A stretch of DNA of 64,000 nucleotides from Candidatus Falkowbacteria bacterium (GTDB taxonomy: Bacteria; Patescibacteriota; Patescibacteriia; UBA11705): NCBI GenBank assembly GCA_003518055.1, contig DOZJ01000002.1:55225-119224 (forward strand), in the 5' to 3' direction. Positions 1,521 to 62,700 of the stretch are shown here, one piece after another. The notes below the pieces were generated by a model. That model worked only from the letters and a program-made list of their open reading frames with translations. It was not told the origin of the DNA and searched no databases. The first letter of the stretch is position 1, and each line of letters starts with the position of its first letter. Position numbers and translations under genes: made by a program.

Positions 1521-1603
1521 TTCATTTCTCTAAACCCGCTACCCGCTACCCGCTACACGCTAAAAGCTAAAAGCTATAAGCTATAAGTAAAACGCTATTC
1601 GCT
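1521..1603. repeat. Short tandem repeats abutting a start codon: 3x 'cccgctac', then 'aagctaaa' and 'aagctata' units, ending ...cgctATG
   Basis: Direct reading of the sequence. 7-8 bp periodicity. No Shine-Dalgarno. Confidence 0.8.
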
Positions 1604-3521: not shown

Positions 3522-5489
3522 ATGGAGGGCCACCAAAATTTTCTTCATCAGTTTGAAGACCGTCATGAACCCAAAACCGGCAGCCGGTGGTGGCGGATTT
3601 TGGCGGTGCCGTTTTCAGTTCTGCCGACAATCTTGCTTACGCTTATAATCGTTGTGTTGGTGATTGTCGTTGGCGGCTTGGTTTTGATCTGGCCGTCGAT
3701 CAATTCCGTTCAAACGATTTCGACCGAGACCCTAAATGCCAAAAAACACCTTGAAGCAGCCCAGACATATCTTCTGGCTCAGGATTTTTTTACCGCCAAA
3801 GAGCAAATTACAGCCGCACGAGATAGTTTTTCCACCGTCAACCGCGAACTTGATGTGATCGCGGCCAAAAGAATCTTTCGTCTGCCTTATGTCAAAGACC
3901 AGGTGAGTATCGCTCGCGACATTGCGCTGATCGGTGAGAACACTTCAAGTCTATTGTCTGAGGTTTCAGATCTTGGAGATCATATTCTGCAACTCACCAA
4001 TTCAACTACGGTCAATTTCAAAGATATCTCAGAGGAACAAAAGGTTCTGGTTCTAAATCAATTGGTGGCCGCCGGCCAAACGTTAAAAAATTCAGAATCG
4101 AAGATCAACGAGGTTGACGCAGCCCTGATTCGGTTGCAGCCTTTGCAGGCTTCTGGCCTGTGGCGCGAGGTGGTGGTTGAGTTGAATTCAAACATTCCTC
4201 AACTTATGAAGGGGTTGCGCTATATCATTACCGCCTCTGATGTTTTGCCCGAGCTGGCCGGCCTTGACCGCGAAAAAGTTTATCTGCTCCTACTTCAAAA
4301 CAATTCCGAACTCCGACCGAGCGGCGGATTTATCGGCACCTACGGCATTTTAAAAGTCAAAAACGGCGAGCTGGCCTCAATCTTTACCGACAACATTTAT
4401 AACTTGGACAAAACAATTGAAGACACCAACGAGATCGCGCCGCCCGAGCCGCTGGTCAAATATCTGAACCAAAAAAAATGGTATATGCGGGATTCAAATT
4501 GGTGGCCTGATTTTCCGACTTCAGCGCGTAAAGTTGAAGAATTTTATCATCTCGAAGGCGGCCCTGAAACCAATATTGACGGTGTGCTGGCGTTAACCCC
4601 TGATGTCATCGCAGATTTCTTGAAAATTGTTGGTCCGGTTACCATTTCTGGCATCACCTTTACCGCTGACAATTTTGTCGATGAACTTCAATATCAAGTG
4701 GAAGTGGGTTTTTTCGAAGACCCCAAAGAATTTGAAGAGCGCAAAGAAATCATCAGTCACTTGGCCGAAGAAATCAAAAATCGTCTGTTCAATTTGAAGG
4801 TCGAACAGCTTCCTTTGGTTTTTGACACGCTTGAAAATAATTTGACCGAAAAATTTATCCTTGGTTATTTTGATCAAGCTGATTTACAAACATTTTTCTC
4901 CACTAAGAATTGGTCGGGTGAGGTCAGACCGACTCCCGATGATTATTTGCTTGTGGTGGATGCTAATTTGGCCGCGCTCAAAACCGATCGGGTGATGCAA
5001 CGTCAAGTCAGTTATTCGGTCCGACCGGACAGCGGCGGCCTTTTGGCTGAAGCCAAGCTGACTTATATCAATAACGGCTGGTTTGACTGGCGCACTACGC
5101 GCTATCGCACCTACACTCGCGTTTACGTTCCTGCCGGCAGCCGGATTCAGAGCCTCAAGGTTGGCAATACTGAATTTAACCCCGAGAGCATCGATACTTA
5201 TCATGAATTTGGTAAAACTGCGTTTGGTTTTTTCTTTCAAGTTGAACCGGGGACCCGCCAAGTGGTCACCTTACGCTATCATCTCCCCGAGTCAGTCGCA
5301 GCCGGCCTCGCTGATTCAGCTTATACGCTGCTGCTGCAAAAACAGTCGGGTGTACCTGAATATGATTTGTCGTTGAACATTAATTTGGGCCGGTCGATTG
5401 TCAAGCAATCCACCGGCGAGACGCTCCCTTCGCTGAACTATTCCGCGAAGGTAAAGGCCGATGAACTATTGACCATAAAAATTAAATAG
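3522..5489 (+). CDS. Membrane-anchored extracytoplasmic protein, DUF4012-like (family assignment tentative)
   Basis: 655 aa with an N-terminal TM helix. Size, architecture and position after the GT genes resemble DUF4012 proteins. No catalytic motif seen. Confidence 0.4.
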   Translation: MEGHQNFLHQFEDRHEPKTGSRWWRILAVPFSVLPTILLTLIIVVLVIVVGGLVLIWPSINSVQTISTETLNAKKHLEAAQTYLLAQDFFTAKEQITAARDSFSTVNRELDVIAAKRIFRLPYVKDQVSIARDIALIGENTSSLLSEVSDLGDHILQLTNSTTVNFKDISEEQKVLVLNQLVAAGQTLKNSESKINEVDAALIRLQPLQASGLWREVVVELNSNIPQLMKGLRYIITASDVLPELAGLDREKVYLLLLQNNSELRPSGGFIGTYGILKVKNGELASIFTDNIYNLDKTIEDTNEIAPPEPLVKYLNQKKWYMRDSNWWPDFPTSARKVEEFYHLEGGPETNIDGVLALTPDVIADFLKIVGPVTISGITFTADNFVDELQYQVEVGFFEDPKEFEERKEIISHLAEEIKNRLFNLKVEQLPLVFDTLENNLTEKFILGYFDQADLQTFFSTKNWSGEVRPTPDDYLLVVDANLAALKTDRVMQRQVSYSVRPDSGGLLAEAKLTYINNGWFDWRTTRYRTYTRVYVPAGSRIQSLKVGNTEFNPESIDTYHEFGKTAFGFFFQVEPGTRQVVTLRYHLPESVAAGLADSAYTLLLQKQSGVPEYDLSLNINLGRSIVKQSTGETLPSLNYSAKVKADELLTIKIK

Positions 5490-8102: not shown

Positions 8103-8144
8103 TCTAATCTCGAATCTCCAATCTCTTAATCTCTTAATCTCTTC
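8103..8144. repeat. Tandem 7-8 bp repeat (t)aatctc(t), about 5 units, directly upstream of dnaE, ending ...tctccccctATG
   Basis: Direct reading. The same unit recurs at 57619-57668. Confidence 0.8.
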
Positions 8145-13924: not shown

Positions 13925-14362
13925 ATGAAAGCCCTGCTCCAACGCGTGAACCACGCGAAAGTCACAGTTGATCACAAGACAGTCGGCGAGATCGGCCGGG
14001 GGATTTTGATTCTGCTCGGAATTGATCGGGCTGATGACGCGGGTAAAATAAAACCGTTGGCGGATAAAATTTTAAATTTACGGATTTTTGCCGGTGCTGG
14101 TGGGGAATTTGATCAAGCGGTGCTTGATATCAAGGGTGAAATTTTAGTTGTTTCCCAGTTTACCTTGTGCGGTTCGTGCGCCAAAGGCCGGCGGCCGGAT
14201 TTTATGAGCGCAGCGGATCCGATTGTGGCTAATGATTTGTATAAAAAATTCGTGGCGGAGCTCAAGGCATCAGGTCTGACCGTTGCTACCGGCGAATTTC
14301 AGAAAATGATGAAGGTTGAATTGGAAAATGATGGACCAGCCACGTTTATAATCGAAAAATAA
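13925..14362 (+). CDS. dtd: D-tyrosyl-tRNA(Tyr) deacylase
   Basis: 145 aa, 'QRV..A.V....GEIG.G.L.LLG' start and 'VVSQFTL...NDGPATF' core, collinear with Dtd. Confidence 0.9.
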   Translation: MKALLQRVNHAKVTVDHKTVGEIGRGILILLGIDRADDAGKIKPLADKILNLRIFAGAGGEFDQAVLDIKGEILVVSQFTLCGSCAKGRRPDFMSAADPIVANDLYKKFVAELKASGLTVATGEFQKMMKVELENDGPATFIIEK

Positions 14363-14369
14363 TAAAAAT

Positions 14370-15017
14370 ATGTTTTTAGAAGATTTAAATGTAAATAAAA
14401 GTCGGCCACCACAGAGCGAACGCGATATGGCTAAAGAAAAGCTTGATCGGGTGGTGACTGAAAACATCAGGATGTTAAAGACCGAAGGCTATGAATCTAC
14501 GTCTGATGAATCAATGGGCGGGAACGCCAGAACATTTAACGTTGCTGGTTTAAATATCTTGATGACATGCAAAGGAATGAATGCCTATTGCGATGAGGAT
14601 GGTATCTTAAAACAGTTTACAAACTATGAGAATCAGGTAAGGAGTGGAAGTCGGAGGCATATAACCTTTCGTGTCGGCATCGATGTCAGTGAATATTTCC
14701 AACGCCACAAACCGACCGCTGGGTTAATTGTTGAAGTTTATGGCACTGAAAACGCCACTCCTGAAATCAAAAAAATATTCAGAGAGACTCAGCACCGCTT
14801 CAATGTTGAATCCGCCAAGAGCTTTCATGATTTAAAAATCGCCGTCGCGCTCATGGGCGAGCTGGAATCATCAACCGGTGAAACTATATCCACGGCAGAG
14901 CTGTTACAGCGTCTTAACGAAGTTCAAACTTCTCGCAGCAATGCCGCGCTGCTTCCTCGGGAGTTTGGCCTCAGGTACAAGGTGATTGAATTGTTGAGAA
15001 ATGAAATTGTCCATTGA
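14370..15017 (+). CDS. Hypothetical protein
   Basis: 215-aa ORF, no motifs recognised. Confidence 0.45.
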   Translation: MFLEDLNVNKSRPPQSERDMAKEKLDRVVTENIRMLKTEGYESTSDESMGGNARTFNVAGLNILMTCKGMNAYCDEDGILKQFTNYENQVRSGSRRHITFRVGIDVSEYFQRHKPTAGLIVEVYGTENATPEIKKIFRETQHRFNVESAKSFHDLKIAVALMGELESSTGETISTAELLQRLNEVQTSRSNAALLPREFGLRYKVIELLRNEIVH

Positions 15018-15099
15018 AATTGGTTGTTGATGATTTGTTTTATGGGTGAAATTCAATGTTTAGATTATCATCACATCAAATTTATGGGCTTGATTAAAT

Positions 15100-15730
15100 A
15101 GATAATCCCCACTTTAGTGGAAGGGTTTTATGAGATATCAGTTCTTTTCCAACACAACATATTTTGTTACCTACAAAACATGTAATAATGGATCGTATTA
15201 TTTTTCTGATGAGGAAAAAGATATTATCTTATCGAAATTGCTAGAAGCCCGGTCAAAATTCATACCCGGATTAAAAGCGTTTGCCATTCTTTCCAACCAT
15301 TATCATCTATTAATTGAAAATGTTGATAGTCGGGCCGCCCAAAAGTTTTTCCAACTATTAAATGGTGGTAGCTCGTTCATTATTAATAAGGATAAAAATA
15401 GTAAATTTAATTATTGGGGGATTCAGGACCGAATCAATTGGCCGGTTAAGACTGAGGGAAAGTTTTTTCAATTTTTAGCGTATGTGGTGGCCAATCCGTG
15501 GCGTCATGGTTTGGTGCGGGAAATAAGTGATTTAAAAGGTTATCGGTATTGTAATTATGACCAAGTTTGCGAAGACTATGGAGAGGCGTTTATACAAGAT
15601 TTAATTTTAAATCGTATTAAGAAAGATGATGAATGAGGTGTTTTCCCCACTAAGGTGGGGCATATTTAATTCATGTAATATAAAAAGAAATAAAATTCCT
15701 TATGTCCCACTTTAGTGGGAGGGTCTATAA
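15100..15730 (+). mobile_element. IS200/IS605-like or REP-RAYT element: Y1 transposase flanked by palindromic hairpins
   Basis: Near-identical hairpin copies 'cccactttagtgg(a/g)agggt' at 15106-15129 and 15704-15727, plus 'ccccactaaggtgggg' at 15645-15660, bracket the 168-aa HuH gene. Confidence 0.6.
15130..15636 (+). CDS. IS200/RAYT-like HuH tyrosine (Y1) transposase
   Basis: HuH motif 'NHYHLLIE'. 'NYWGIQDRI' and C-terminal 'NPWRHGLV' match the COG1943/RayT signature (NPvkaGLV). About 165 aa, typical size. Confidence 0.7.
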   Translation: MRYQFFSNTTYFVTYKTCNNGSYYFSDEEKDIILSKLLEARSKFIPGLKAFAILSNHYHLLIENVDSRAAQKFFQLLNGGSSFIINKDKNSKFNYWGIQDRINWPVKTEGKFFQFLAYVVANPWRHGLVREISDLKGYRYCNYDQVCEDYGEAFIQDLILNRIKKDDE

Positions 15731-15764
15731 AAAACGATAGAATTAATATTTTCTTTATAATAAT

Positions 15765-17525
15765 ATGAACGAAGATCAATTAAAAAAAATGCGTCACTCT
15801 CTCGCCCACGTAATGGCTCAAGCGGTTTTGAAGTTTTTTCCTGACGCCAAATTAGCGATCGGTCCTGACATTGATACCGGTTTTTATTATGATTTTGACT
15901 TGGGTGGCCAGTCATTCTCACCGGAAGATTTGAAAAAAATCGAGAAACAAATGAAAAAAATCATCGCCGGTAATCAGAAATTCGAAGCTTATTCCTTACC
16001 GCTGTCCGAAGCCAAAGAAAAAATGCAGGGCAACCCCTACAAGGTTGAGTTAATCGATGAACTTGGGGGTGCGGGGGAGACGGTTATTAATTTTTACAAA
16101 AATATCGACGGCAACGGCCAAACCATGTTTAATGATATGTGCCGCGGGCCTCATGTCGAGTCCACCAAAGCGGTCGGCGCCTTCAAAATTGACAAGGTCG
16201 CTGGCGCCTATTGGCGGGGAGATGAAAAAAAACCGATGCTTCAGCGGATTTACGCGTTGGCTTTTGGCACCCAAGCGGAATTGGAACATTTTCTAACCAT
16301 GAGGGCTGAGGCTGAACGCCGCGATCACCGAAAACTGGCCAAAGAGTTGGGCTTGATTGTCCATTCCGAATTGGTCGGACCGGGCCTGCCGCTTTACACG
16401 GGCAAAGGCGCGTTGCTTCGACGACTGATCGGCGATTATTCGCGTGAACTTCGAGACCGTATGGGTTATGTCGAAGTTCATACGCCGCAAATGAACAAGG
16501 CCGAACTCTTTAAACGCTCCGGCCATTATGACAAATACAAAGATGATATGTTCCGCGTGGTGTCCAATTATACCGATGAAGAATATTATCTTAAACCCAT
16601 GAATTGTCCTCAGCACACGCAGATTTTTGCCGCGGATATCCGCAGCTACAAAGACTTACCGGTTCGCATCGCTGATTTCGCCAATCTCTATCGAGATGAA
16701 AAACCCGGAGAGTTGAGCGGTCTGACTCGTCTACGGTGTTTTGCTCAGGACGACGGCCATTGTTTTTGCCGCGAGGATCAGATTGAGCAGGAATTCAGCC
16801 AGCTGCTCGAAGCGGAAAAGGAAACCCTCGCGACTTATGGGATGGACTATCATGTTCGGTTGTCATTCTCTGATAAAAATAATATGAAAGCCTATCTCGG
16901 TGACGAAGCGGTGTGGTCCAAGGCGGAGATCATGCTCGAAGCTTTGGTTAAAGAAAAAAATGTCCCTTACGTTATAGCCGAAGGCGAAGCCGCTTTTTAT
17001 GGCCCCAAAATGGACATCATTGCCAAGGATTCGCTCGGCCGCGAGTGGCAATTGTCGACGATTCAAATCGATTTTAATCTGCCTGAGCGGTTTGAACTGG
17101 AATACATCGGCCAAGACGGCAAAAAACACCGTCCGGTGATGATTCATAGTGCTCTAGTCGGTTCGCTGGAACGTTTTATGGCCGTCGTGATTGAGCATTA
17201 TGCCGGGGACTTTCCTTTGTGGCTCTCACCGGTTCAGGTCAAGCTGATTTCCGTCGGTGAAAAACATCACGACTATGTGGTTAATTTGGCTGCTAAATTA
17301 AAACAGGAAAAAATTCGAGTGGAGATTGATTTGAGCGATGAAACCGTTGGCAACAAAATTAGAAAATCAGAAAAAGAAAAGAATCCTTACATGTTGGTCA
17401 TTGGTGACAAAGAAATGGAATCGACCAAATACACCATTCGTCAGCGTAATGAATCTGACCAACGCGAACTCAGTCTGGACGAGTTGGTCACGGAAATTGT
17501 CCAGAAAGTGGCTGCCAAAAAATAG
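15765..17525 (+). CDS. thrS: Threonyl-tRNA synthetase (short form lacking N-terminal TGS domain)
   Basis: 586 aa. 'HSLAHVMAQAV' editing-domain start, class II core and anticodon-binding domain collinear with ThrRS. Confidence 0.9.
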   Translation: MNEDQLKKMRHSLAHVMAQAVLKFFPDAKLAIGPDIDTGFYYDFDLGGQSFSPEDLKKIEKQMKKIIAGNQKFEAYSLPLSEAKEKMQGNPYKVELIDELGGAGETVINFYKNIDGNGQTMFNDMCRGPHVESTKAVGAFKIDKVAGAYWRGDEKKPMLQRIYALAFGTQAELEHFLTMRAEAERRDHRKLAKELGLIVHSELVGPGLPLYTGKGALLRRLIGDYSRELRDRMGYVEVHTPQMNKAELFKRSGHYDKYKDDMFRVVSNYTDEEYYLKPMNCPQHTQIFAADIRSYKDLPVRIADFANLYRDEKPGELSGLTRLRCFAQDDGHCFCREDQIEQEFSQLLEAEKETLATYGMDYHVRLSFSDKNNMKAYLGDEAVWSKAEIMLEALVKEKNVPYVIAEGEAAFYGPKMDIIAKDSLGREWQLSTIQIDFNLPERFELEYIGQDGKKHRPVMIHSALVGSLERFMAVVIEHYAGDFPLWLSPVQVKLISVGEKHHDYVVNLAAKLKQEKIRVEIDLSDETVGNKIRKSEKEKNPYMLVIGDKEMESTKYTIRQRNESDQRELSLDELVTEIVQKVAAKK

Positions 17526-21137: not shown

Positions 21138-21176
21138 CCCTAAACCCTAAAAGCTAAACGCTAACCCCTAAACCCT
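21138..21176. repeat. Telomere-like heptamer repeats CCCTAAA / (a/c)GCTAAA abutting the rfbC start (...ccctATG)
   Basis: Direct reading of 'ccctaaaccctaaaagctaaacgctaacccctaaaccct'. Confidence 0.8.
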
Positions 21177-21632
21177 ATGATCTCCGGAGTTCAAATCAAA
21201 CCCATCAAACGCTTCTGCGATGACCGCGGTTATTTTTGCGAAGTTATTAAGTTCGGTGAAGACACTTATCACGAAGTCAAACAAACCAGCTATACCGAGA
21301 CGCATCCCGGCGTGATCAAAGCTTTCCATTGGCACAAAAAACAATGGGATGTCTGGTTCGTGGTTCGGGGTATGGCTCAGGTTGTGCTTCATGATATGCG
21401 CGATGACTCGCCAACCAAAGGCGAAACTCAAGTCATTTGCGCCGGCGAAGATAACCCGGTCTTGATTGCCATCCCGCCATTTGTGGCCCATGGTTATCGG
21501 GTTCTGGGAAACGAGAAGGTTTGTTTGTTTTATCACACGAGCGAAGCCTATGATCCGGCCAACCCGGATGAAGAGCGGATCGAATTTGACGACCCGAAAA
21601 TCGGCTTTGACTGGACCACCAAAAATCGTTAG
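21177..21632 (+). CDS. rfbC: dTDP-4-dehydrorhamnose 3,5-epimerase (short cupin form)
   Basis: 'DDRGYFCEV' and 'AFHWHKKQ' correspond to RmlC 'DERGFF' and 'GLHFQ' motifs. Confidence 0.7.
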   Translation: MISGVQIKPIKRFCDDRGYFCEVIKFGEDTYHEVKQTSYTETHPGVIKAFHWHKKQWDVWFVVRGMAQVVLHDMRDDSPTKGETQVICAGEDNPVLIAIPPFVAHGYRVLGNEKVCLFYHTSEAYDPANPDEERIEFDDPKIGFDWTTKNR

Positions 21633-22749: not shown

Positions 22750-22809
22750 CGAGCGCCCACTGCCGTTTTATATATTACACATTACATATTACACAAATAA
22801 TTCACCAAT

Positions 22810-38241: not shown

Positions 38242-38709
38242 TTATTCGCGAACCACGTAAGTTTTCGCGATCATGTCATGCAGGCCTTGTTTTTTCTTGG
38301 TCCAGAAAATTATCAAAAAGCCAATGCCGAGGGTGATACCGCAGACAATGCCACCAACAATTTGTCTCAGCAGGACGACCGCCCACCAATTCATCTTGTT
38401 CTCATTTGCTTCTTTGATTAATTTCAATTTCAAAGCCATCATGCCCAGTGTTTGCTGCTTCAAAGCCAAGAAACAAATCACATAAACCAATCCGATCAAG
38501 CCGCCAAGATTGTTGGTCGCGTTTTCTGACATGAATGAACCGAGGATTCCGATCACAATCCCTAGAATTATCGCATCGATAATGTAGGCCAGAAATCGAA
38601 TCCAGCCACCGGCATAATGCGGTCCGCCGAGCGCCGGTTTTGACATGTCCGGTTGAGCAGCCATTGGCGTTGCCGCCGGCATCGACCCTTGAGATCTTTG
38701 TTCGTCCAT
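38242..38709 (-). CDS. RDD family membrane protein
   Basis: 'WIRFLAYIIDAII' and C-terminal 'QGLHDMIAKTYVV' typical of RDD domains. Confidence 0.7.
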   Translation of the reverse strand: MDEQRSQGSMPAATPMAAQPDMSKPALGGPHYAGGWIRFLAYIIDAIILGIVIGILGSFMSENATNNLGGLIGLVYVICFLALKQQTLGMMALKLKLIKEANENKMNWWAVVLLRQIVGGIVCGITLGIGFLIIFWTKKKQGLHDMIAKTYVVRE

Positions 38710-39063
38710 AAGAAGTTTGATTATGATTTATTCTTACTCGTCTATTATAGCAAAAAACAATCAAACAATCCAATAATTAAAAAACCACGTGGTGACGTGA
38801 TTTATTGTTCCTTTAACAGTTGTTTAGTTTCTTCCAAGGTTTTTCTAAACGCCTTGAACAAGAACCATTTCCCGGTGAAAAAGGCCTTCCATTTGAGCCG
38901 CCGCAGGCGGCTGATTTCAGCTTCCAGATATTGTTTATATTCGTGAGCCGTCCAGAGTCCTTCGGCTTTCCTTTCCGTTTCCATTGATCATCTCTTTCCG
39001 GCTGCTGCCAGATTTTTCTTTTGTAAATGGGTGAGGTTTTACCCTGATATTAATTGTTAATTA

Positions 39064-56456: not shown

Positions 56457-57416
56457 ATGAAAAAAATTATTTTAATTATAATTCTGATATTGCTGCCAAC
56501 CACCGTACTGGCCGCGTTTGATATTGATTTTACCTCTCAAGCTCCGGTCGGGGATTGGCGTCAACCGTGGCAGGATGCATGTGAAGAAACTTCGGTGGTG
56601 ATGGTGGATGCTTTTTATGGCGGTTATGACCTGACGGTTGATAAATCTGTGACCAAAATCAAAACTGTTTTTGCCATCAAAGAAAAATTTTTTGGTCCGA
56701 GTTATGATGAAACTGCCGGCCTTATCGTTGATATGATCAACCGGCATTTTCCTTGGGAATCGCGAGTGGTCGAAAACCCAACGCTTGATCAGATAAAGTT
56801 TGAGCTGGATGCCAGCCGTCCGGTTTTGGTGCCGGTTCATGGCGGTACGCTTAATAATCCCAATTATCATTCCGGCTCAATCGATTATCACATGATTGTG
56901 CTGATCGGTTATGACGACGCTCGCGGTGAATTTATGGCGCATGATCCGGGCACGCAATTCGGTTCTCGTCATCATTACAGTTACGATACCATTATGGCCG
57001 CCATGCATGATTTTTTGCCTAACGACCAGACATTAAGAGGCGCCAAAGTGGCGATTTTCACACAGCCTGACATTTCTCTCTCCGGTCAAACCGATGGCGA
57101 CAGGGACGGATTATTGAAAATTGACGAAATTAGATCAGGCGCCAACCTGTCACAAGCTGATACTGATCGAGATGGTTTTCTTGACGGCGAAGAAGTTCAG
57201 CAGGGGTATTCTCCGTTGGTGGCCGAGTTCAAACTGGGGGATAACCGATTGGTGCGCGACGCGGCGACTCAGCGGATCTATTTTATTTCCGGCAGCCAGA
57301 AAAGACATATTCAAACCCTCCCGACGGTATTCAGTTATGGCCGCCTTTATGGCGCGGTTGTTAATGTCAGCGCTAAATTCTTGAACAGTTTTGTTGACGG
57401 GCAGCCGATCCATTAG
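56457..57416 (+). CDS. Secreted papain-fold (C39-like) cysteine peptidase domain protein with Ca-binding D-x-D-x-D-G repeats
   Basis: Signal peptide. 'QPWQDACEETS' Cys context and a downstream His are C39_2-like. 'TDGDRDGLL' and 'TDRDGFLDGEE' repeats. Confidence 0.45.
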   Translation: MKKIILIIILILLPTTVLAAFDIDFTSQAPVGDWRQPWQDACEETSVVMVDAFYGGYDLTVDKSVTKIKTVFAIKEKFFGPSYDETAGLIVDMINRHFPWESRVVENPTLDQIKFELDASRPVLVPVHGGTLNNPNYHSGSIDYHMIVLIGYDDARGEFMAHDPGTQFGSRHHYSYDTIMAAMHDFLPNDQTLRGAKVAIFTQPDISLSGQTDGDRDGLLKIDEIRSGANLSQADTDRDGFLDGEEVQQGYSPLVAEFKLGDNRLVRDAATQRIYFISGSQKRHIQTLPTVFSYGRLYGAVVNVSAKFLNSFVDGQPIH

Positions 57417-57420
57417 CTTT

Positions 57421-57616
57421 CCCGCACTGAAGTACAGGAAAAATGATTCTGGCCGGTTTGGATCTTTTCCCGCACTAAAGTACGGGAAAAGAAGGATGGG
57501 AAAAATGGTTTAGGCCGGTTTGAATCCTTTCCCCGCACTAAAGTACGGGAAAAGAATGGTGGGAAAAATGATTTTAGCCGGTTTAGATATTTCCCCGCAC
57601 TTCAGTGCGGGAAGCG
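57421..57616. repeat. Tandem array (about 3.5 units of about 62 bp), each unit starting with a GC-stem hairpin ccc(c)gcac-t(a/t)(a/c)ag-t(a/g)cggg
   Basis: Units at 57421, 57468, 57531 and 57594. First and last hairpins carry reverse-complementary loops (ctgaag vs cttcag). Spacer parts are also repeated, so this is not a CRISPR. Confidence 0.75.
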
Positions 57617-57618
57617 GG

Positions 57619-57668
57619 CTCAATCTCTCAATCTTTCAATCTCTTAATCTCTTAATCTCTTAATCTCT
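57619..57668. repeat. Tandem 8-mer (c/t)aatctct x about 6, ending ...tctctcccaccccATG
   Basis: Same unit as the one upstream of dnaE. Confidence 0.8.
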
Positions 57669-57678
57669 CTCCCACCCC

Positions 57679-58128
57679 ATGTGCGCCGGTATTTCATTTC
57701 ATATTGATAAAATCAATCCTGAGGAACTGGATCGGTTTTTCCTGCCGGCAGAATACGATAGCCACCGCCGCGGCGACCGAGTTGAGGTTTTTTACTGGGA
57801 CCGTGATCCGTTTCTGCCGATTGAAGAAGACGATGGTGTTCATCTTTATCCTTGGGGCAACCGGGAAAAAGATTTGAAGCTGCCCAAAACCGGTTGGGCC
57901 AAGATTGAATCCATTCAAGATGGCCGCTGGGATTATCTGGCGCCGAAACTGGTCAAAATCCCCAGCCTGTCAGGCTATGAAAAAAAACACTGGTTTGGCA
58001 CGCCGGCCGGCATCAGAGGTATTAAGGTTCGCTTTCACAACCTGACTCGCGTTTATTTAGTCACCCAAAAAGCCGATCAAGAATTTTTCAGTAAAATCGG
58101 GCATGATCGGATGCCAATTCAATTTTAA
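57679..58128 (+). CDS. Hypothetical 149-aa protein with N-terminal Met-Cys
   Basis: Stop is 3 nt before the giant ORF start. Confidence 0.5.
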   Translation: MCAGISFHIDKINPEELDRFFLPAEYDSHRRGDRVEVFYWDRDPFLPIEEDDGVHLYPWGNREKDLKLPKTGWAKIESIQDGRWDYLAPKLVKIPSLSGYEKKHWFGTPAGIRGIKVRFHNLTRVYLVTQKADQEFFSKIGHDRMPIQF

Positions 58129-58131
58129 TTT

Positions 58132-61100
58132 ATGTCAGAAGGCGTCTCATACAATTCAAAAATTTCTCATGAGCTAACCGAATCCAAATCCGTCTTGGAA
58201 TCGGAGATTGAACTCATGGGCAATTTAAATCTTGCCAAAAAATATTTTCGAGAAGAAGAGGCTTTTATTTCCTATCTGAAAGAATTGAAAGGGCAAGAAG
58301 AAGAAAGCCAGAAAAAAAAGACCGACCTCCCGTTTGATCTTGATATCGAAGCCAAACAATTGGCTGAAATGCTGGCGGTCAAAGCTCAAGACAACATTGT
58401 TGGCAGTTTTTTGTTGTCCCTCGCTGGAGGCAGCCGGCTTTGGGCCCAGACCATTAAGTATTATCTTGATATGATCGGCGCTGATTGGGATGAATGGCAC
58501 CGATTGGGCCGAGATATTGAAGGACACGTGGAGTATGATTGGGATTTTCGATCCCGGGATCAGGCTCATGCTCTTGGGGCTTGTTTCAGAAATTTTGATT
58601 TTGACGGTTCGTATGATGTTGAAAGACTGCAGGTTTCGTTTGGTAGCCCGGAGCGGTTTCAAAACAAAAGGAACATCATGTTTTCTCGCTTTATCCGTTT
58701 TGGTCAGCAGCATATCAAGGCTGAATACAGGGAAGTTCAATCAGCTTTGTCATCTGTCTCAATCATCTCGGCCGACAGAATTGCGGACCGCTCATCTGAG
58801 TTGGTTGAAAATATTTTAGCAGGCATCCATGCCAAGCCTTATTCTGACCAAATACAAAATTTGACCAAAATGATAGAGACAGGCCTTGGCGATATTGTTT
58901 TGTTTCATTTGGAAGAATTTAAAATTCAGGATTCCGACCGGTCAGATTTGATTTATTCCATTGGTTCTCATGATCCGGAATTATTTTTTGCTCATTTTGA
59001 TGAATTCAATCTCATTGGACACGCTCAAGCTGAAGAGTTGTTTATGAATCTCTTGGACCGAGAGCCAAGGTTGGCTTTGGCTCACTTGGAGCAGTCTGGT
59101 TTGGATCCCAATCCGGTTATCGACTATCTGATTCACAATCACCCTAAACTTTTTATTCATTATTTGGATGAATTTCTGGTGACTCTGATCCCCGAAGGCA
59201 AAATGGCAGAGTGTGTTCACGCTATCAATAAATATTTTGACCGGCTTTATACCGGAAATCCGGCTAGAGCTGTCAATGAACTCTATGGCTTAAAAATCAA
59301 TAATCCGGTTATTAATGGTTTGATTGAAAAATATTATCTTGAAGCACTTCAAATATTTGTTCCTGATGTATATCAAGAGTTGTTAAAAATCCAGTCCGCT
59401 ATTGAAGACGAAGATAAGGATATAATTTTTTCCAAAAATCAAGATTTCCAACCGGTAATCAAATATTTTAAAGAGAAAGGTTTAAATCGGGGCTACGCTG
59501 ATATCCTTGCTTTGGCCGTTGCCGCAGATGATAAGCTGAGGACCATTAAGGCAACATATAATGGTCATGAGTATGATGAAGACATTAGTTTTCGTTATGG
59601 CGCGTCGCATTTTCGGGATGCTGACAATAGGATTGTTCCGGGTCATAGTTCATCTGAGGTGGTTCATCGTTATCTCATTGATAAATTTGTCCGAGAGGAA
59701 GACTGGCATAATGCTATCCATAGCTGGGTGGCCTTTTTCCGAGATGGGATGACGGCCAACTCGAACGATCTCGAGTTTTTTGAAGATCTGTTATTCAATG
59801 TATTGAGATCTGCGCCTGAAATAATTATGAATACTGCAATCTTGGAAGATCTGCCGAAATATCGATTTCCTCGGGAAAAAGAACTTCTTGATATCATGGT
59901 CAAGTTGACGGACGATTGGTTCTTTTTCCAGTCTGGTAAAAACGCCGAGGCTTTGCGCAGCCGGTTGAGCGAGTCGCAAAAATTGACTCTGATCAATAAA
60001 CTCATAGAGCAAAATCCGGTTTATCTGGCTGAAAAATTCAAATTGATCAGGCTCAAGAACAAAAAACAGGAATATGAGATGTTGCGCCGGTTGATCAGGG
60101 ATGGGATTGAACCGTTTAGCTATTTTTCTTCTCCCGGCCAAGCGCTCAAAATTTTACTGGCCAGCAATGTCGGTCGTTTGTGGGACGGCTATCAAGATCC
60201 GGAGCACAGGCGGGAAATAATCAGCCATCTTTTATCCATCAAGGATACGATCTCTCCGGAGACTTGGGATTTTATTCAATCAATTCAAAAAGAATCACAT
60301 CGTTCCTATGATATCAGTCAATTGTCCTTAGACAGCTTCAAAGCAATTGACTATGTTCGCCAAAATAAGCCTGAAATTTTTCAAAAGCTACAGGGACCGA
60401 GAGCTGACTTCAGGCTCAAGATGTTTGAATGTTTCGAGCGGCTTAATACCCAAAATGTCAATCAGCTGACGCGCATTTTGTCGGATATAGAAGAACTATC
60501 AGATGGTATCGAGTCTAAATTACGTCGAAAGGTTGAATCGTATTCTGTTGTTCGCAACGCTGCTCCGGCTGAGAGAGAGAGAATCATTAAAGATCAAATT
60601 CAAGCAGCGATTCACAATCTCAAAGAGCCCGAGAGAAGTATATATGGGACTCTGCGTTCAGCTTATAGTGATGAGGTCTATGATTATATCGCCTTGGCCT
60701 TGGCCACTCAAAGAAAATTGCCTGATTTGATTACTACAATCAATAAAGTTCAGGAAGGCCTCAAGGATGAATCGTCAAAGCGCTATATTTCCGAAGACAA
60801 GCTTTTAGATTTTTGTTTGCGGGACAATCAAATCACAGCCAGATACAACTTGCTCAGAAACAATGTTAGTCAATTAAAAGCATTCAATATATTATTTGGA
60901 GATAATTTGTTTGAATCTCCGTTTCAAGGCGGGCGACAGGAATTGCTGTACTTGGATCTGTTATTTGATGCCCCCCCGGACAGACAGCAGGCGATTTTGG
61001 GCGGAGCGGTTGACTTTGATTCACTGAGCCGCGGGTTGGAGCGGGTTGAAGTTATCAAGTTGACTTTGCAGCTGCTGCCATATTTGGAGTTTGAAAAAGG

Positions 61101-62700
61101 CCAAAGTGAAGTGGAGCTTTTTCAGGGGTATATCCGAGAATTTGGCCTCCTAAATGAGCCTGTAATTTTTTCTGAATACAAAAAAATCAAACAAGGCAGT
61201 GCAGTTTCTCCTGCCTTTGCTTCCTTGGGGGTAAAAAATTTGCCGGCAGTGGCCGGGGAATCAGAAACTGAAGCCAATCGCCGAATCAGCCGGATGCTCA
61301 ATAATATCAGGCACGTGATGAGGCAGCTGAGAGATGATATTATTTTGACCGGCGAAATCAACCCTGACCTTTTGACCAATGACTTAGCTTTGGCTGTTTT
61401 TCGGTCCTCTACTCATTTTGATGAAAGTCAATGGCGCCGGTCATATAGTTTTGAAAAAATGATTGCAGAATTTTATCAAGAAACGGATCAGGGGCTGATT
61501 GCCCCCTTGCCTCGGGAATACCGAGCTGAAATTTTCACGGTTAAAAAGCTGGCCGATGAGAATGAAATTCCGGAGTTTGAATTTTCAGAAGTATCAGCCA
61601 GTCAATTTGAGCGTTTTATCGCTGTCGCCAATGAAACTCTGCGTTTGATTGATTTTCATGGATCAGGCCCGGCTGCTTTCAGAGAAATTGCCACTCGCTG
61701 TCAAGCTGGTTTGCGTGAGTATCTGGACAGTTTATCAGCCAATCTTGAACAAACAAAATCCAACTCCAGTCTGCCGGCAGATAAAAAGGAAAAAATTATC
61801 TCTAGTCTGGAGTCACAGTTTAAAGCTCATCAACAGCTATTCCTAGCTCTGGATCACCCTGAAAACATTGTTCAGGCTTTAGCTGATTTTGAAATTCAGC
61901 AGCAAATTAAAAAAGAGAATAAGTATACCAGTCCCTTTTTACGTTTAGCTTCTCTAGTGGCCAGTTATGGGCAGGATCCCAAAGTGGCCGACCTTCTGCA
62001 GAATATCTCCAAAGAAGATGACATCAATTCGGCGGCCTTGCGTCAAATTGGTGAGTTGGTCAACAACAATTTAGCTCAACATGCATTGCCCGCTTTAAAT
62101 TTATCTAATAAACAGATCGCCAAGATAAGACAAATATTGGGCATATCGACATTTAGCGATGAATTGTCTCGGATTCAAGGTTATGAAAGCGGCCGGTTTG
62201 AAGAGTTCGGCATGCTGCCCACCCGTGGTTTTCTCGGAGAACTCAGCGGTTATTATTGCGACGCTTGCTGGACCAGCCGCACTTCTATCATGAAGGCAAA
62301 CCCTCGAATGACTGCGGTGGCGTTTGTCGGTAATTTGGAAAATGAAGCTCAGCGCAAAATTGTGGGTGGCAGTCTTTTGATTGAAACCGAAGCCGGCGGC
62401 GAAAAAGTGATGATCATTCGAGGCTTCAACCCAAAACAAAATACTCTGGCCGGCGCCAATGCTGAAGATTTTTTTGAACAATTTTCCAGTTCTGTGGCTA
62501 GAATTGCCAAAGACCGCGGCTGCACCAAAGTGATTGCTCCGGTTTTTAATCCGGGGGCCATGAGCAATCGTCAGGAGGTGTTGAGTTATATGGATAAGCG
62601 TTATAGCAAAAGTAAAAAGGTAAAACTTGATGAGGAGATATCTTTCAATGGTTATAATCTGGTTACCAGTTGCGTAGTAATACGCGATTTAAAGTCTTAA
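58132..62700 (+). CDS. Giant hypothetical cytoplasmic protein (1522 aa), no recognisable domains
   Basis: Uninterrupted frame. Largely helical-looking. C-terminal about 200 aa Gly/Cys-containing globular region. No signal peptide. Confidence 0.7.
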   Translation: MSEGVSYNSKISHELTESKSVLESEIELMGNLNLAKKYFREEEAFISYLKELKGQEEESQKKKTDLPFDLDIEAKQLAEMLAVKAQDNIVGSFLLSLAGGSRLWAQTIKYYLDMIGADWDEWHRLGRDIEGHVEYDWDFRSRDQAHALGACFRNFDFDGSYDVERLQVSFGSPERFQNKRNIMFSRFIRFGQQHIKAEYREVQSALSSVSIISADRIADRSSELVENILAGIHAKPYSDQIQNLTKMIETGLGDIVLFHLEEFKIQDSDRSDLIYSIGSHDPELFFAHFDEFNLIGHAQAEELFMNLLDREPRLALAHLEQSGLDPNPVIDYLIHNHPKLFIHYLDEFLVTLIPEGKMAECVHAINKYFDRLYTGNPARAVNELYGLKINNPVINGLIEKYYLEALQIFVPDVYQELLKIQSAIEDEDKDIIFSKNQDFQPVIKYFKEKGLNRGYADILALAVAADDKLRTIKATYNGHEYDEDISFRYGASHFRDADNRIVPGHSSSEVVHRYLIDKFVREEDWHNAIHSWVAFFRDGMTANSNDLEFFEDLLFNVLRSAPEIIMNTAILEDLPKYRFPREKELLDIMVKLTDDWFFFQSGKNAEALRSRLSESQKLTLINKLIEQNPVYLAEKFKLIRLKNKKQEYEMLRRLIRDGIEPFSYFSSPGQALKILLASNVGRLWDGYQDPEHRREIISHLLSIKDTISPETWDFIQSIQKESHRSYDISQLSLDSFKAIDYVRQNKPEIFQKLQGPRADFRLKMFECFERLNTQNVNQLTRILSDIEELSDGIESKLRRKVESYSVVRNAAPAERERIIKDQIQAAIHNLKEPERSIYGTLRSAYSDEVYDYIALALATQRKLPDLITTINKVQEGLKDESSKRYISEDKLLDFCLRDNQITARYNLLRNNVSQLKAFNILFGDNLFESPFQGGRQELLYLDLLFDAPPDRQQAILGGAVDFDSLSRGLERVEVIKLTLQLLPYLEFEKGQSEVELFQGYIREFGLLNEPVIFSEYKKIKQGSAVSPAFASLGVKNLPAVAGESETEANRRISRMLNNIRHVMRQLRDDIILTGEINPDLLTNDLALAVFRSSTHFDESQWRRSYSFEKMIAEFYQETDQGLIAPLPREYRAEIFTVKKLADENEIPEFEFSEVSASQFERFIAVANETLRLIDFHGSGPAAFREIATRCQAGLREYLDSLSANLEQTKSNSSLPADKKEKIISSLESQFKAHQQLFLALDHPENIVQALADFEIQQQIKKENKYTSPFLRLASLVASYGQDPKVADLLQNISKEDDINSAALRQIGELVNNNLAQHALPALNLSNKQIAKIRQILGISTFSDELSRIQGYESGRFEEFGMLPTRGFLGELSGYYCDACWTSRTSIMKANPRMTAVAFVGNLENEAQRKIVGGSLLIETEAGGEKVMIIRGFNPKQNTLAGANAEDFFEQFSSSVARIAKDRGCTKVIAPVFNPGAMSNRQEVLSYMDKRYSKSKKVKLDEEISFNGYNLVTSCVVIRDLKS

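What the first reader, a model, noticed from the sequence alone, without database searches (positions are those of the whole stretch)
57421..57668. Structured hairpin tandem-repeat array plus microsatellite between a peptidase gene and the orphan operon
About 3.5 copies of a roughly 62-bp unit occur in tandem. Each unit is headed by the palindrome ccc(c)gcac-t(a/t)(a/c)ag-t(a/g)cggg. The terminal copies carry mutually reverse-complementary loops, giving the array inverted ends. The hairpin resembles the ones flanking the RAYT transposase at 15.1-15.7 kb (cccac-tttag-tggg), in stem composition and loop. So this may be a REP/BIME-like cluster mobilised by that transposase, a MITE, or a structured small RNA or attenuator for the downstream operon.
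Basis: seen in the sequence. Interest (0 to 1): 0.6.

Follow-up and report, generated by a model that had tools for sequence, protein, structure and literature searches.

The report
REP-like hairpin cluster in Falkowbacteria
The hairpin tandem array is real and is most likely a small cluster of REP-type palindromic elements tied to a divergent REP-associated (RAYT-like) transposase family in a groundwater CPR bacterium; this is a known kind of selfish or domesticated repeat in an unusual host, not a new regulatory RNA.

Summary
Four GC-clamped hairpins (57417-57613; spacing 48/63/62 bp) are separated by three mutually similar spacers, and an 8-nt microsatellite (57619-57669) follows and ends 10 nt before the ATG at 57679.

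The host is a Candidatus Falkowbacteria (CPR) chromosome. The closest relative keeps the same gene order but has only a 67-bp intergenic region, with no hairpin and no microsatellite. The array is therefore a lineage-specific gain, not a conserved riboswitch or attenuator.

The hairpin apex ACT-NN-AGT matches the hairpins that flank the RAYT-like gene at 15130-15636:
- The 9-mer ACTTTAGTG occurs only at these two places in the window (4 hits against 0.18 expected).
- The same apex flanks two homologues of that gene (38% identity) in other metagenomes. One of them carries tandem hairpin units.
- The protein family is closest to E. coli TnpA-REP (PDB 4ER8) and to NCBIfam REP_Tyr_transpos, though below that model's cutoff.

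Best reading: a REP/BIME-like cluster amplified locally by tandem duplication.

Limits: no further copy was found in 82 kb of this genome, genome-wide abundance could not be tested, and mobilisation is inferred.

The microsatellite is a separate thing. It belongs to a class of G-poor 7-8-nt repeats that lie 0-15 nt upstream of start codons in this genome.

The parts
57417..57442 (-). Hairpin 1 (+ strand CCCGCACTGAAGTACAGG). It starts 1 nt after the TAG stop of the peptidase gene. It has two C.A mismatches on the + strand, which become U.G/T.G wobbles on the - strand.
57443..57462 (.). Spacer 1 (AAATGATTCTGGCCGGTTTGGA). This is the short version, lacking the 15-nt GAAGGATGGGAAAA-type segment.
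57463..57492 (-). Hairpin 2, TCTTTTCCCGCACTAAAGTACGGGAAAAGA. It forms 13 pairs on the - strand; ssDNA -11.3 kcal/mol.
57493..57523 (.). Spacer 2 (AGGATGGGAAAAATGGTTTAGGCCGGTTTGA).
57524..57557 (-). Hairpin 3 (core CCCGCACTAAAGTACGGG). It forms up to 15 pairs on the - strand when G.T is allowed.
57558..57591 (.). Spacer 3 (GGTGGGAAAAATGATTTTAGCCGGTTTAGATATT).
57592..57613 (+). Hairpin 4, TTCCCCGCACTTCAGTGCGGGAA. The 7-bp core stem is perfect, and the TTCA loop makes it inverted relative to copies 1-3. With copy 3 it forms a REPIN-like inverted doublet (62 bp start to start).
57619..57669 (+). Microsatellite (CTYAATCT) x6.4, ending 10 nt before the ATG at 57679. It is a separate entity: a member of a class of G-poor 7-8-nt repeats directly upstream of start codons.
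15130..15636 (+). RAYT-like Y1 HUH transposase gene (168 aa), with HUH = H57-Y-H59 and the catalytic Tyr in AYVVANPWRHGLV.
15107..15122 (+). Left flanking hairpin CCCCACTTTAGTGGAA, 8 nt upstream of the RAYT ATG. It has the same ACTTTAGTG apex as array copies 2 and 3 read on the - strand.
15645..15660 (-). Right flanking hairpin 1, CCCCACTAAGGTGGGG, 8 nt after the RAYT stop, in inverted orientation.
15705..15720 (+). Right flanking hairpin 2, TCCCACTTTAGTGGGA, 60 bp after right hairpin 1. The two form an inverted doublet with the same geometry as array copies 3 and 4.
56457..57416 (+). Upstream gene, Peptidase_C39_2-like (319 aa). Its stop codon abuts hairpin 1.
57679..58128 (+). Downstream gene (149 aa, N-terminus MCAGISF). 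It is conserved in Falkowbacteria/Parcubacteria, has no Pfam family, and lies next to lexA and a Y-family polymerase gene in one relative.

Best explanation
The array is a small cluster of REP-type extragenic palindromes. It is arranged as an ordered tandem repeat (hairpin plus conserved spacer, 63 bp) in which the last hairpin is inverted. The hairpins belong to the class associated with a divergent, CPR-borne clade of REP-associated tyrosine (Y1 HUH) transposases, one member of which lies 42 kb upstream at 15130-15636.

Proposed history and mechanism:
1. Inferred: a hairpin or an inverted doublet was deposited in the peptidase/149-aa intergenic region by the Y1 enzyme, acting on hairpins folded in single-stranded DNA.
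2. Shown as pattern, mechanism inferred: the unit was then amplified locally by slippage or unequal recombination. A 15-nt indel between GGGAAAA direct repeats is part of this.
3. Inferred from what REPs do in E. coli: in RNA the stable stem-loops that start 1 nt after the peptidase stop codon would act as a 3' stabiliser or insulator between the two genes. They would not act as an intrinsic terminator.

The adjacent microsatellite is unrelated. It is one of several G-poor leader repeats just upstream of start codons in this genome.
For: Shown:
- The array is real and far beyond chance.
- It is non-coding. The peptidase ORF stops at the same position as in the relative, and only short ORFs of 37-47 aa (GTG/TTG starts) overlap it; the gene callers called nothing there.
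- Lineage-specific gain: in L136 the 149-aa protein is 80% identical and the order peptidase -> 149-aa -> EamA is kept. The intergenic region there is 67 bp with no hairpin and no microsatellite.
- Link to the RAYT flanks: the 9-mer ACTTTAGTG occurs 4 times in 64 kb, namely at 2 RAYT flanks (+) and at array copies 2 and 3 (-), against 0.18 expected.
- Hairpins defined only by the apex ACTNNAGT plus at least 3 further pairs number 6 in the window (2 RAYT flanks, 4 array) against 0.52 in shuffles. There are none in about 53 kb of RAYT-less Falkowbacteria-type loci (L136, L139, L141, L143).
- The same apex, in the same four loop variants (TGAA/TAAA/TTCA/TTTA) and followed by a G/A-rich tail, flanks RAYT homologues in other organisms. 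L149/L150 (P0054, 38% identity) have 5 such hairpins, including a 55-nt unit repeated in tandem at 115 bp. L147 (P0052, 38% identity) has TCGACTTTAGTTGG upstream and CCCATTAAAGTGGGG at the 3' end.
- Geometry: the RAYT 3' flank has an inverted doublet 60 bp apart, and array copies 3 and 4 form an inverted doublet 62 bp apart with the same relative orientation.
- The protein is RAYT-like. NCBIfam REP_Tyr_transpos gives E 1.5e-13 over 8-142 of 146 positions. All 10 nearest relatives hit that model best, and one of them is above the cutoff. A family profile hits E. coli TnpA-REP 4ER8 best (1.1e-7), ahead of the IS200-family enzymes. The HUH motif and the Tyr are invariant.

From the literature: ordered tandem-repeat clusters of REP/REPINs that include their flanking sequence, and clusters next to RAYT genes, are described for P. 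fluorescens (PMC3116915). RAYT groups with only about 12-14 associated repeats exist (PMC5581495).
Against: - No further copy of either hairpin variant was found in 82 kb of the same genome. High copy number, the classical REP hallmark, is therefore not shown and could not be tested genome-wide.
- The array stem differs from the RAYT-flank stem by two extra base pairs (CCCGCAC/GTGCGGG against CCCAC/GTGGG), so cognate recognition by this particular enzyme is uncertain. By plain edit distance the similarity is no better than a few random hits.
- There is no GTAG or CGTC tag at the hairpin foot (PMC3733652 abstract).
- The RAYT-like ORF scores below the curated cutoffs (Pfam 20.1 against 23; NCBIfam 50.9 against 80).
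- Copies 1-3 are direct, not alternating as in E. coli BIMEs.
- The excess conservation of hairpin over spacer is not significant (2/30 against 7/33 mismatches, p = 0.15).
- There is no strain variation to show mobility. All 14 contigs carrying the locus match the window across this intergenic region over whatever part of it they contain, and a subset compared by BLAST showed one mismatch in total.
Confidence: 0.6

Rival explanations
1. A purely local satellite. A palindromic sequence at the 3' end of the peptidase gene was duplicated in tandem by slippage and has nothing to do with the Y1 transposase. It might be, for example, a binding site for a dimeric protein or a non-canonical RNA 3' hairpin. 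On this reading the shared apex is coincidence or convergence.
For: It is the only copy outside the RAYT flanks in 82 kb. The stem differs by 2 bp from the RAYT flanks. Edit-distance similarity is at the level of random hits. The relative has CTTCCGC right after its stop codon, where the window has CTTTCCCGC, so part of the arm could be ancestral.
Against: The 9-mer apex is shared only with the RAYT flanks. The same apex and the same four loop variants recur at RAYT homologues in unrelated contigs and nowhere else in about 53 kb of RAYT-less loci. The doublet spacing and orientation match the RAYT 3' flank.
Confidence: 0.15
2. A structured regulatory RNA. One version is a 5'-UTR attenuator for the 149-aa gene: the short ORFs MILAGLDLFPH* and MILAGLDISPHF... 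start in the spacers and run into the next hairpin. The other version is an antisense or small RNA from the minus strand.
For: The minus strand folds much better than shuffles (-105.9 kcal/mol, z -6.5) and better than the plus strand (-85.5, z -3.0), because all stem substitutions are G.U-compatible on that strand. Mini-ORFs with an ATG lie in spacers 1 and 3, and two Leu codons differ synonymously.
Against: - It is absent from the closest relative, which keeps both flanking genes.
- Rfam gives no hit at gathering level and only noise at E up to 10.
- No promoter-like site was found on either strand in the array.
- The hairpins lack a downstream U-run, so they are not intrinsic terminators or attenuators of the type used elsewhere in this window (A-run, stem, T-run).
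- The mini-ORF in copy 2 is cut by a stop after 2 codons.
- There are no compensatory double substitutions, only two independent G->A changes.
Confidence: 0.12
3. A single MITE-like non-autonomous element of about 200 bp (57416-57615) bounded by terminal inverted repeats.
For: The end hairpins are in inverted orientation with matching outer bases (GCTTTCCCGCACTGAAG ... CTTCAGTGCGGGAAGC; I3). The whole block is missing from the relative's empty site.
Against: There is no target-site duplication. There is no second copy in 82 kb, in the one metagenome scan or in viral contigs. The inverted ends are almost a by-product of palindromic hairpins. The internal structure is a tandem repeat, not unique sequence.
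Confidence: 0.08
4. A degenerate or orphan CRISPR-like array (29-nt palindromic repeat plus about 34-nt spacer, period 63).
For: The repeat and spacer lengths and the palindromic repeat core TTCCCCGC...GCGGGAA resemble type I-E geometry (the resemblance is recalled from memory).
Against: The 'spacers' are homologous to each other (26/33 identical between units 2 and 3). No cas gene appears in the precomputed Pfam annotation of the 82 kb. PADLOC gave no hit for the neighbouring proteins. Neither the hairpin nor the spacer pattern matched viral contigs.
Confidence: 0.02

Closest known systems
REP / REPIN clusters with RAYT (P. fluorescens SBW25 REPIN tandem clusters; E. coli BIMEs with TnpA-REP)
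   Same: - Short GC-clamped imperfect palindromes in extragenic space.
- Related hairpins flank a single Y1 HUH transposase gene whose family is closest to TnpA-REP.
- Inverted doublets 60-62 bp apart.
- Ordered tandem repeats in which the spacer is repeated along with the palindrome, as described in PMC3116915.
   Different: - Only 4 + 3 copies were seen in 82 kb; hundreds per genome are not shown.
- There is no GTAG/CGTC tag.
- Three of the four hairpins are direct rather than alternating.
- The array stem is 2 bp longer than the RAYT-flank stem.
- The host is a CPR bacterium. In my two literature searches no paper connected REP/RAYT elements with CPR or Patescibacteria genomes.
- The protein scores below the curated RAYT cutoff.
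IS200/IS605 subterminal hairpins and their transposase-less derivatives (PATE-like elements)
   Same: A Y1 HUH enzyme acting on hairpins in ssDNA. The left and right-2 hairpins of the 15-kb ORF are direct copies (CCCACTTTAGTGGrAGGG), like the LE/RE of an IS200-type element. The left hairpin overlaps the ribosome-binding region, as in IS200 (from memory).
   Different: The ORF does not hit NCBIfam transpos_IS200 at E <= 0.01 but does hit REP_Tyr_transpos. The profile prefers 4ER8 over the IS200-family structures. The gene is single-copy in the sequence available, and its homologues sit between housekeeping genes.
CRISPR array
   Same: A period of about 63 bp made of a palindromic ~29-nt repeat plus a ~34-nt interval.
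   Different: The intervals are copies of one another, there are no cas genes, and there are only four repeats.
Intrinsic (Rho-independent) terminators
   Same: A GC-rich stem-loop immediately after a stop codon.
   Different: The T-run precedes and the A-run follows the stem on both strands. Bona fide terminator-like hairpins in this window have the opposite layout, A-run, stem, T-run. The scan found none in the array.

Membership tests
REP/REPIN-RAYT system | Short (20-40 nt) imperfect palindrome located in extragenic space | tested here: met
   There are four hairpins of 22-34 nt between the stop at 57416 and the ATG at 57679. No gene was called in the array; only short ORFs of 37-47 aa overlap it.
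REP/REPIN-RAYT system | The same or closely related palindromes flank the RAYT gene | tested here: inconclusive
   The apex ACTTTAGTG and the CCC/GGG clamp are shared and are unique to the two loci. The array stem, however, carries 2 extra base pairs, and overall edit distance is 5 of 20.
REP/REPIN-RAYT system | Many dispersed copies per genome (over-represented extragenic repeat) | tested here: not met
   Within 82 kb of this genome (window plus L143 and L144) there is no copy outside the array and the RAYT flanks. Genome-wide status is therefore unknown.
REP/REPIN-RAYT system | Associated single-copy Y1 HUH transposase of the RAYT type (HUH motif, catalytic Tyr, RAYT profile) | tested here: inconclusive
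   HUH and Tyr are present and invariant in the family. The best NCBIfam model is REP_Tyr_transpos, but at 50.9 bits against a cutoff of 80. One relative scores 91.7. The best PDB match of the family profile is TnpA-REP 4ER8. One copy in 82 kb.
REP/REPIN-RAYT system | Inverted doublets (REPINs) and/or ordered tandem clusters | tested here: met
   Copies 3 and 4 are inverted, 62 bp apart. The RAYT 3' flank doublet is inverted, 60 bp apart. The array is a tandem unit of 63 bp. A comparable tandem unit (115 bp) lies next to the RAYT homologue in L149.
REP/REPIN-RAYT system | Conserved GTAG or CGTC tetranucleotide at the foot of the hairpin (the two REP superfamilies of PMC3733652) | tested here: not met
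   The feet read TTTT/TTTC (array) and TAAT/TATG (RAYT flanks). No GTAG or CGTC is present.
REP/REPIN-RAYT system | Binding and cleavage of the hairpin by the RAYT; excision or transposition | not testable with these tools
   This needs biochemistry or read-level population data. All available contigs were clonal at this locus.
MITE | Terminal inverted repeats plus target-site duplication and multiple copies | tested here: not met
   A TIR-like pair is present (I3), but there is no TSD and no other copy.
CRISPR array | Unique spacers between conserved repeats; cas genes nearby | tested here: not met
   The spacers are 79% identical to each other. There are no cas domains in the annotated 82 kb.
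Known structured RNA family (Rfam) | Covariance-model match at gathering score | tested here: not met
   Only a tRNA passes in the window. In 57300-57800 the best hits are miRNA-model noise at 26.6 bits against a gathering score of 80.

The most novel reading that the evidence does not exclude
Patescibacteria (CPR) carry their own, so far undescribed, clade of domesticated RAYT-like Y1 transposases. Its cognate element would be a low-copy hairpin defined by the apex AC-T(R/Y)(R/Y)A-GT and a purine-rich, Shine-Dalgarno-like tail. These hairpins would spread as tandem modules at gene boundaries, directly after stop codons and directly before start codons, where they shape mRNA ends or translation in genomes that otherwise mostly lack Shine-Dalgarno sequences.
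Probability: 0.3. Interest if true: 0.5.

Novelty: new member of a known kind. Interest (0 to 1): 0.33.

Why it matters
REP/RAYT systems have been studied almost only in Proteobacteria, where the repeats number in the hundreds. A RAYT-like clade with a recognisable cognate hairpin in tiny, streamlined CPR genomes would show that these elements persist even where non-coding space is minimal. It would also give a simple sequence signature (ACTNNAGT-apex hairpins) for finding them.

Practically, the array is a place where four independent assemblies break, so it matters for MAG contiguity. It does not look like a new regulatory RNA or a defence locus.

Tried and rejected
- Genome-contig scan with CCCGCACTNNAGTRCGGG. 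None had the extended TT..AA stem or the spacer motif. That scan was wasted.
- Metagenome-contig scan with the 23-nt extended hairpin. It returned one unrelated single hairpin (L135). The source contig is evidently not in that collection.
- Two viral-contig scans, one for the hairpin and one for the spacer, gave 0 hits.
- Protein search with the longest pseudo-ORF of the array, hoping to catch spurious ORFs called over sister arrays, found nothing.
- Word-index search with the RAYT protein returned only itself. The exhaustive representative search was needed.
- LexA-operator idea. The apex GCAC-N4-GTGC has the layout of a Cheo box, and the downstream gene is SOS-linked in one relative. I rejected it because the lexA locus of that relative carries GTTC-N7-GTTC-type repeats instead, and no such hairpin.
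- Intrinsic terminator, rejected because the T/A runs are in the wrong order.
- Purifying selection on the hairpin relative to the spacer is not significant.
- Strain comparison was impossible because all contigs are clonal.
- PDB sequence searches with the single proteins (149 aa and RAYT) gave no hits.
- PADLOC gave no hits.

Full report
**1. What is there**

The region 57417-57613 holds four hairpins. Their cores are CCCGCACTGAAGTACAGG, CCCGCACTAAAGTACGGG (twice) and CCCGCACTTCAGTGCGGG. Each is embedded in a T-run...A-run that lengthens the stem to 11-15 pairs when G.T/G.U is allowed. They are separated by three spacers that are copies of one another, GGGAAAAATGRTTYWRGCCGGTTTRRAT.

- TRF scores the array at period 63, 2.8 copies, 84% matches.
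- Start-to-start spacing is 48, 63 and 62 bp. The first unit lacks 15 nt lying between two GGGAAAA direct repeats.
- The hairpin pattern occurs nowhere else in the 64-kb window, against 0.07 expected.
- A separate 8-nt microsatellite, (CTYAATCT) x6.4, follows at 57619-57669 and ends 10 nt before the ATG at 57679.

**2. Context**

All contigs that carry the flanking genes come from groundwater metagenomes. Across this intergenic region they match the window wherever they cover it, and the subset compared by BLAST showed one mismatch in total. A source names the organism Candidatus Falkowbacteria, that is, CPR/Patescibacteria.

The window is ordinary chromosome: dnaE, thrS, CTP synthase, L9, pyruvate kinase and similar genes, with no cas genes.

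- Upstream gene: a Peptidase_C39_2-like protein whose TAG stop is 1 nt from hairpin 1.
- Downstream genes: a 149-aa protein with at least 50 homologues in Falkowbacteria/Parcubacteria and no Pfam family, then a 1522-aa protein with no hit in Pfam, NCBIfam or PADLOC.

**3. Not conserved**

In the closest relative available (L136) the 149-aa protein is 80% identical and the order peptidase -> 149-aa -> EamA is kept. Its intergenic region is 67 bp, with no hairpin and no microsatellite, and the 1522-aa gene is absent. In a more distant relative the homologue abuts its upstream gene.

The array is thus a recent, lineage-specific gain. That argues against a conserved riboswitch, attenuator or sRNA. 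Rfam agrees: only a tRNA passes in the window, and only noise appears in the region.

**4. Not a terminator, not CRISPR**

Terminator-like hairpins elsewhere in the window have the layout A-run, stem, T-run (30070, 39064, 46705, 50856). The array hairpins have the opposite layout on both strands, and the consensus scan finds no terminator or promoter in the array.

The 29 + 34 nt geometry recalls CRISPR. However, the 'spacers' are 79% identical to one another, there are no cas genes, and neither the hairpin nor the spacer pattern matches viral contigs.

**5. Link to the Y1 transposase**

The ORF at 15130-15636 is flanked by three hairpins: CCCCACTTTAGTGGAA, CCCCACTAAGGTGGGG and TCCCACTTTAGTGGGA.

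- Read on the minus strand, array copies 2 and 3 are CCCGTACTTTAGTGCGGG. This is the same hairpin with two extra base pairs.
- The 9-mer ACTTTAGTG occurs four times in the window, exactly at two RAYT flanks and two array copies, against 0.18 expected.
- Hairpins defined only by the apex ACTNNAGT plus at least 3 further pairs occur at six sites, all in these two loci, against 0.52 in shuffles.
- The two hairpins 3' of the ORF form an inverted doublet 60 bp apart. Array copies 3 and 4 form an inverted doublet 62 bp apart in the same relative orientation.

**6. The protein**

- Pfam Y1_Tnp gives a sub-threshold hit.
- NCBIfam REP_Tyr_transpos matches at E 1.5e-13 over nearly the whole model, but at 50.9 bits against a cutoff of 80. 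There is no IS200 hit.
- An exhaustive search finds relatives at 41% identity or less (463 with E <= 1e-3). The ten nearest all hit REP_Tyr_transpos best, and one is above the cutoff.
- HUH (H57, H59) and the Tyr of AY..NP..H are invariant.
- A family profile matches E. coli TnpA-REP (4ER8) best, ahead of the ISDra2 and IS608 transposases.

**7. Independent comparative test**

I retrieved three loci encoding relatives of this protein (38-41% identity), each set between housekeeping genes.

- In L149/L150 the gene is flanked by five hairpins with the same apex and the same four loop variants (CAAACTTCAGTTTG, CAAACTTTAGTTTG, CAGACTGAAGTCTG, CAGACTAAAGTCTG, CAGACTGAAGTCTG). Each is followed by a G/A-rich tail. 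A 55-nt hairpin-bearing unit is repeated in tandem at 115 bp.
- In L147 the gene has TCGACTTTAGTTGG upstream and CCCATTAAAGTGGGG at its 3' end.
- L148 was uninformative, because the contig ends at the gene.
- RAYT-less loci from related organisms (L136, L139, L141, L143; about 53 kb) have none.

The stems differ between organisms while the apex is kept. That is what one expects of a hairpin class co-evolving with its enzyme family.

**8. Interpretation**

The array is best read as a REP-type cluster arranged as an ordered tandem repeat. Bertels and Rainey described such arrangements in P. fluorescens: tandem repeats of REPINs that include flanking sequence, and clusters beside RAYT genes (PMC3116915). 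Some RAYT groups are associated with only about a dozen repeats per replicon (PMC5581495), so low copy number is not disqualifying.

Deposition by the Y1 enzyme, local amplification by slippage, and an RNA-level role as a 3' stabiliser or insulator for the peptidase transcript are all inferences.

All stem substitutions are G->A on the plus strand. The minus strand therefore keeps G.U/G.T pairs and folds better (RNA -105.9 against -85.5 kcal/mol; ssDNA hairpins -4.6 to -11.3 against -1.4 to -10). This fits the minus strand being the 'top' strand of copies 1-3. It rests on only two independent changes and includes no compensatory pair.

**9. Weak points**

- No further copy was found in 82 kb of the same genome.
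My genome-contig scan was too loose and saturated, and the metagenome collection lacks the source contig.
- There is no GTAG/CGTC tag.
- The array stem is not identical to the RAYT-flank stem, so another, unseen RAYT copy could be the real partner.
- Conservation of hairpin over spacer is not significant.

I put 0.6 on the REP-cluster reading. The remainder is split among a RAYT-independent local satellite, a structured RNA, a MITE and, negligibly, CRISPR.

**10. The microsatellite**

It is a different phenomenon. Five of the six intergenic 7-8-nt tandem repeats with at least 3 copies lie 0-15 nt upstream of a plus-strand start codon. The sixth lies 46 nt upstream of a minus-strand start:

| Repeat | Copies | Start codon |
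|---|---|---|
| GCTAAAA | x5.6 | ATG 1604 |
| TAATCTCT | x5.1 | ATG 8157 (dnaE) |
| CCCTAAA | x5.7 | ATG 21177 |
| ATTACAC | x3.1 | ATG 22810 |
| CTCAATCT | x6.4 | ATG 57679 |
| AAACAATC | x3.4 | 46 nt upstream of the minus-strand start at 38709 |

 AATCTCTT repeats also precede a ferredoxin gene just outside the window. In another organism the homologue of the 149-aa gene is preceded by (TTTGATA)n. All of these repeats are G-poor on the coding strand, and most genes here lack a Shine-Dalgarno sequence. I did not pursue this further.

**11. Verdict**

The feature is real. It is a new member of a known kind (REP/BIME-like cluster with a RAYT-like partner) in an unusual host. Interest is modest.

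Noticed in passing
window 1559-1597, 8105-8143, 21138-21177, 22774-22795, 38755-38781, 57619-57669; L143:2544-2559; L141:1660-1730: G-poor 7-8-nt tandem repeats (3-6 copies, with different units) sit 0-15 nt upstream of start codons on the coding strand; one (38755-38781) is 46 nt away. The same AATCTCTT unit precedes three different genes (ferredoxin, dnaE and the 149-aa gene). In another organism the homologue of the 149-aa gene has (TTTGATA)n in the same place. This looks like a leader or promoter-proximal repeat class in Falkowbacteria. One literature search found no description of it.
   Followed up: partly
window 57679-58128; L141:973-4571: The 149-aa protein (N-terminus Met-Cys, no Pfam, NCBIfam or PDB sequence hit) is conserved across Falkowbacteria/Parcubacteria. 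In L141 it lies directly downstream of lexA and near a Y-family polymerase (IMS) gene, which suggests a DNA-damage-response role. The N-terminal Cys recalls SRAP/Ntn-type enzymes, but that is from memory only.
   Followed up: partly
window 58132-62700: This 1522-aa ORF has no hit in Pfam, NCBIfam or PADLOC. It is absent from the syntenic position in the closest relative (L136), where the 149-aa gene is followed directly by the EamA gene. It is a second lineage-specific gain at this locus.
   Followed up: no
L005, L006, L012, L014 (window 57444, 57568, 57617): Four contigs from different assemblies end inside the hairpin array. Two begin at the same base within spacer 3, and one ends within the matching GGAAAAAT of spacer 1. 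This could reflect copy-number heterogeneity in the population or hairpin-related coverage loss. Only read mapping can tell.
   Followed up: no
L149:2895-2990 and 3560-3750 (also L150): A RAYT-like homologue (38% identity) is flanked on both sides by two hairpin classes (CAAACTTNAGTTTG and CAGACTRAAGTCTG-GGGGGAAGAA). These include a 26-nt tandem pair upstream and a 55-nt unit repeated at 115 bp downstream. The last hairpin and its purine tail end 16 nt before the ATG of the next gene (a poly(A) polymerase/CCA-adding family gene).
   Followed up: partly
L141:590-650: Upstream of a small ORF and lexA are GTTC-N7-GTTC and GAAC-N7-GAAC direct-repeat motifs next to a TATAAT box. These are possible LexA boxes of the direct-repeat type in this Patescibacteria-like genome.
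   Followed up: no
window, many starts (e.g. 15765, 46840, 50937, 34320): Most genes lack a Shine-Dalgarno sequence. Several have a TATAAT-like box within 3-25 nt of the start codon, which suggests very short leaders or leaderless mRNAs.
   Followed up: no
window 14001-16000: The 2-kb bin holding the RAYT-like gene has the lowest G+C in the window (0.39 against about 0.45) and a high GC skew. This is consistent with foreign origin or with the AT-rich flanks of the element.
   Followed up: no
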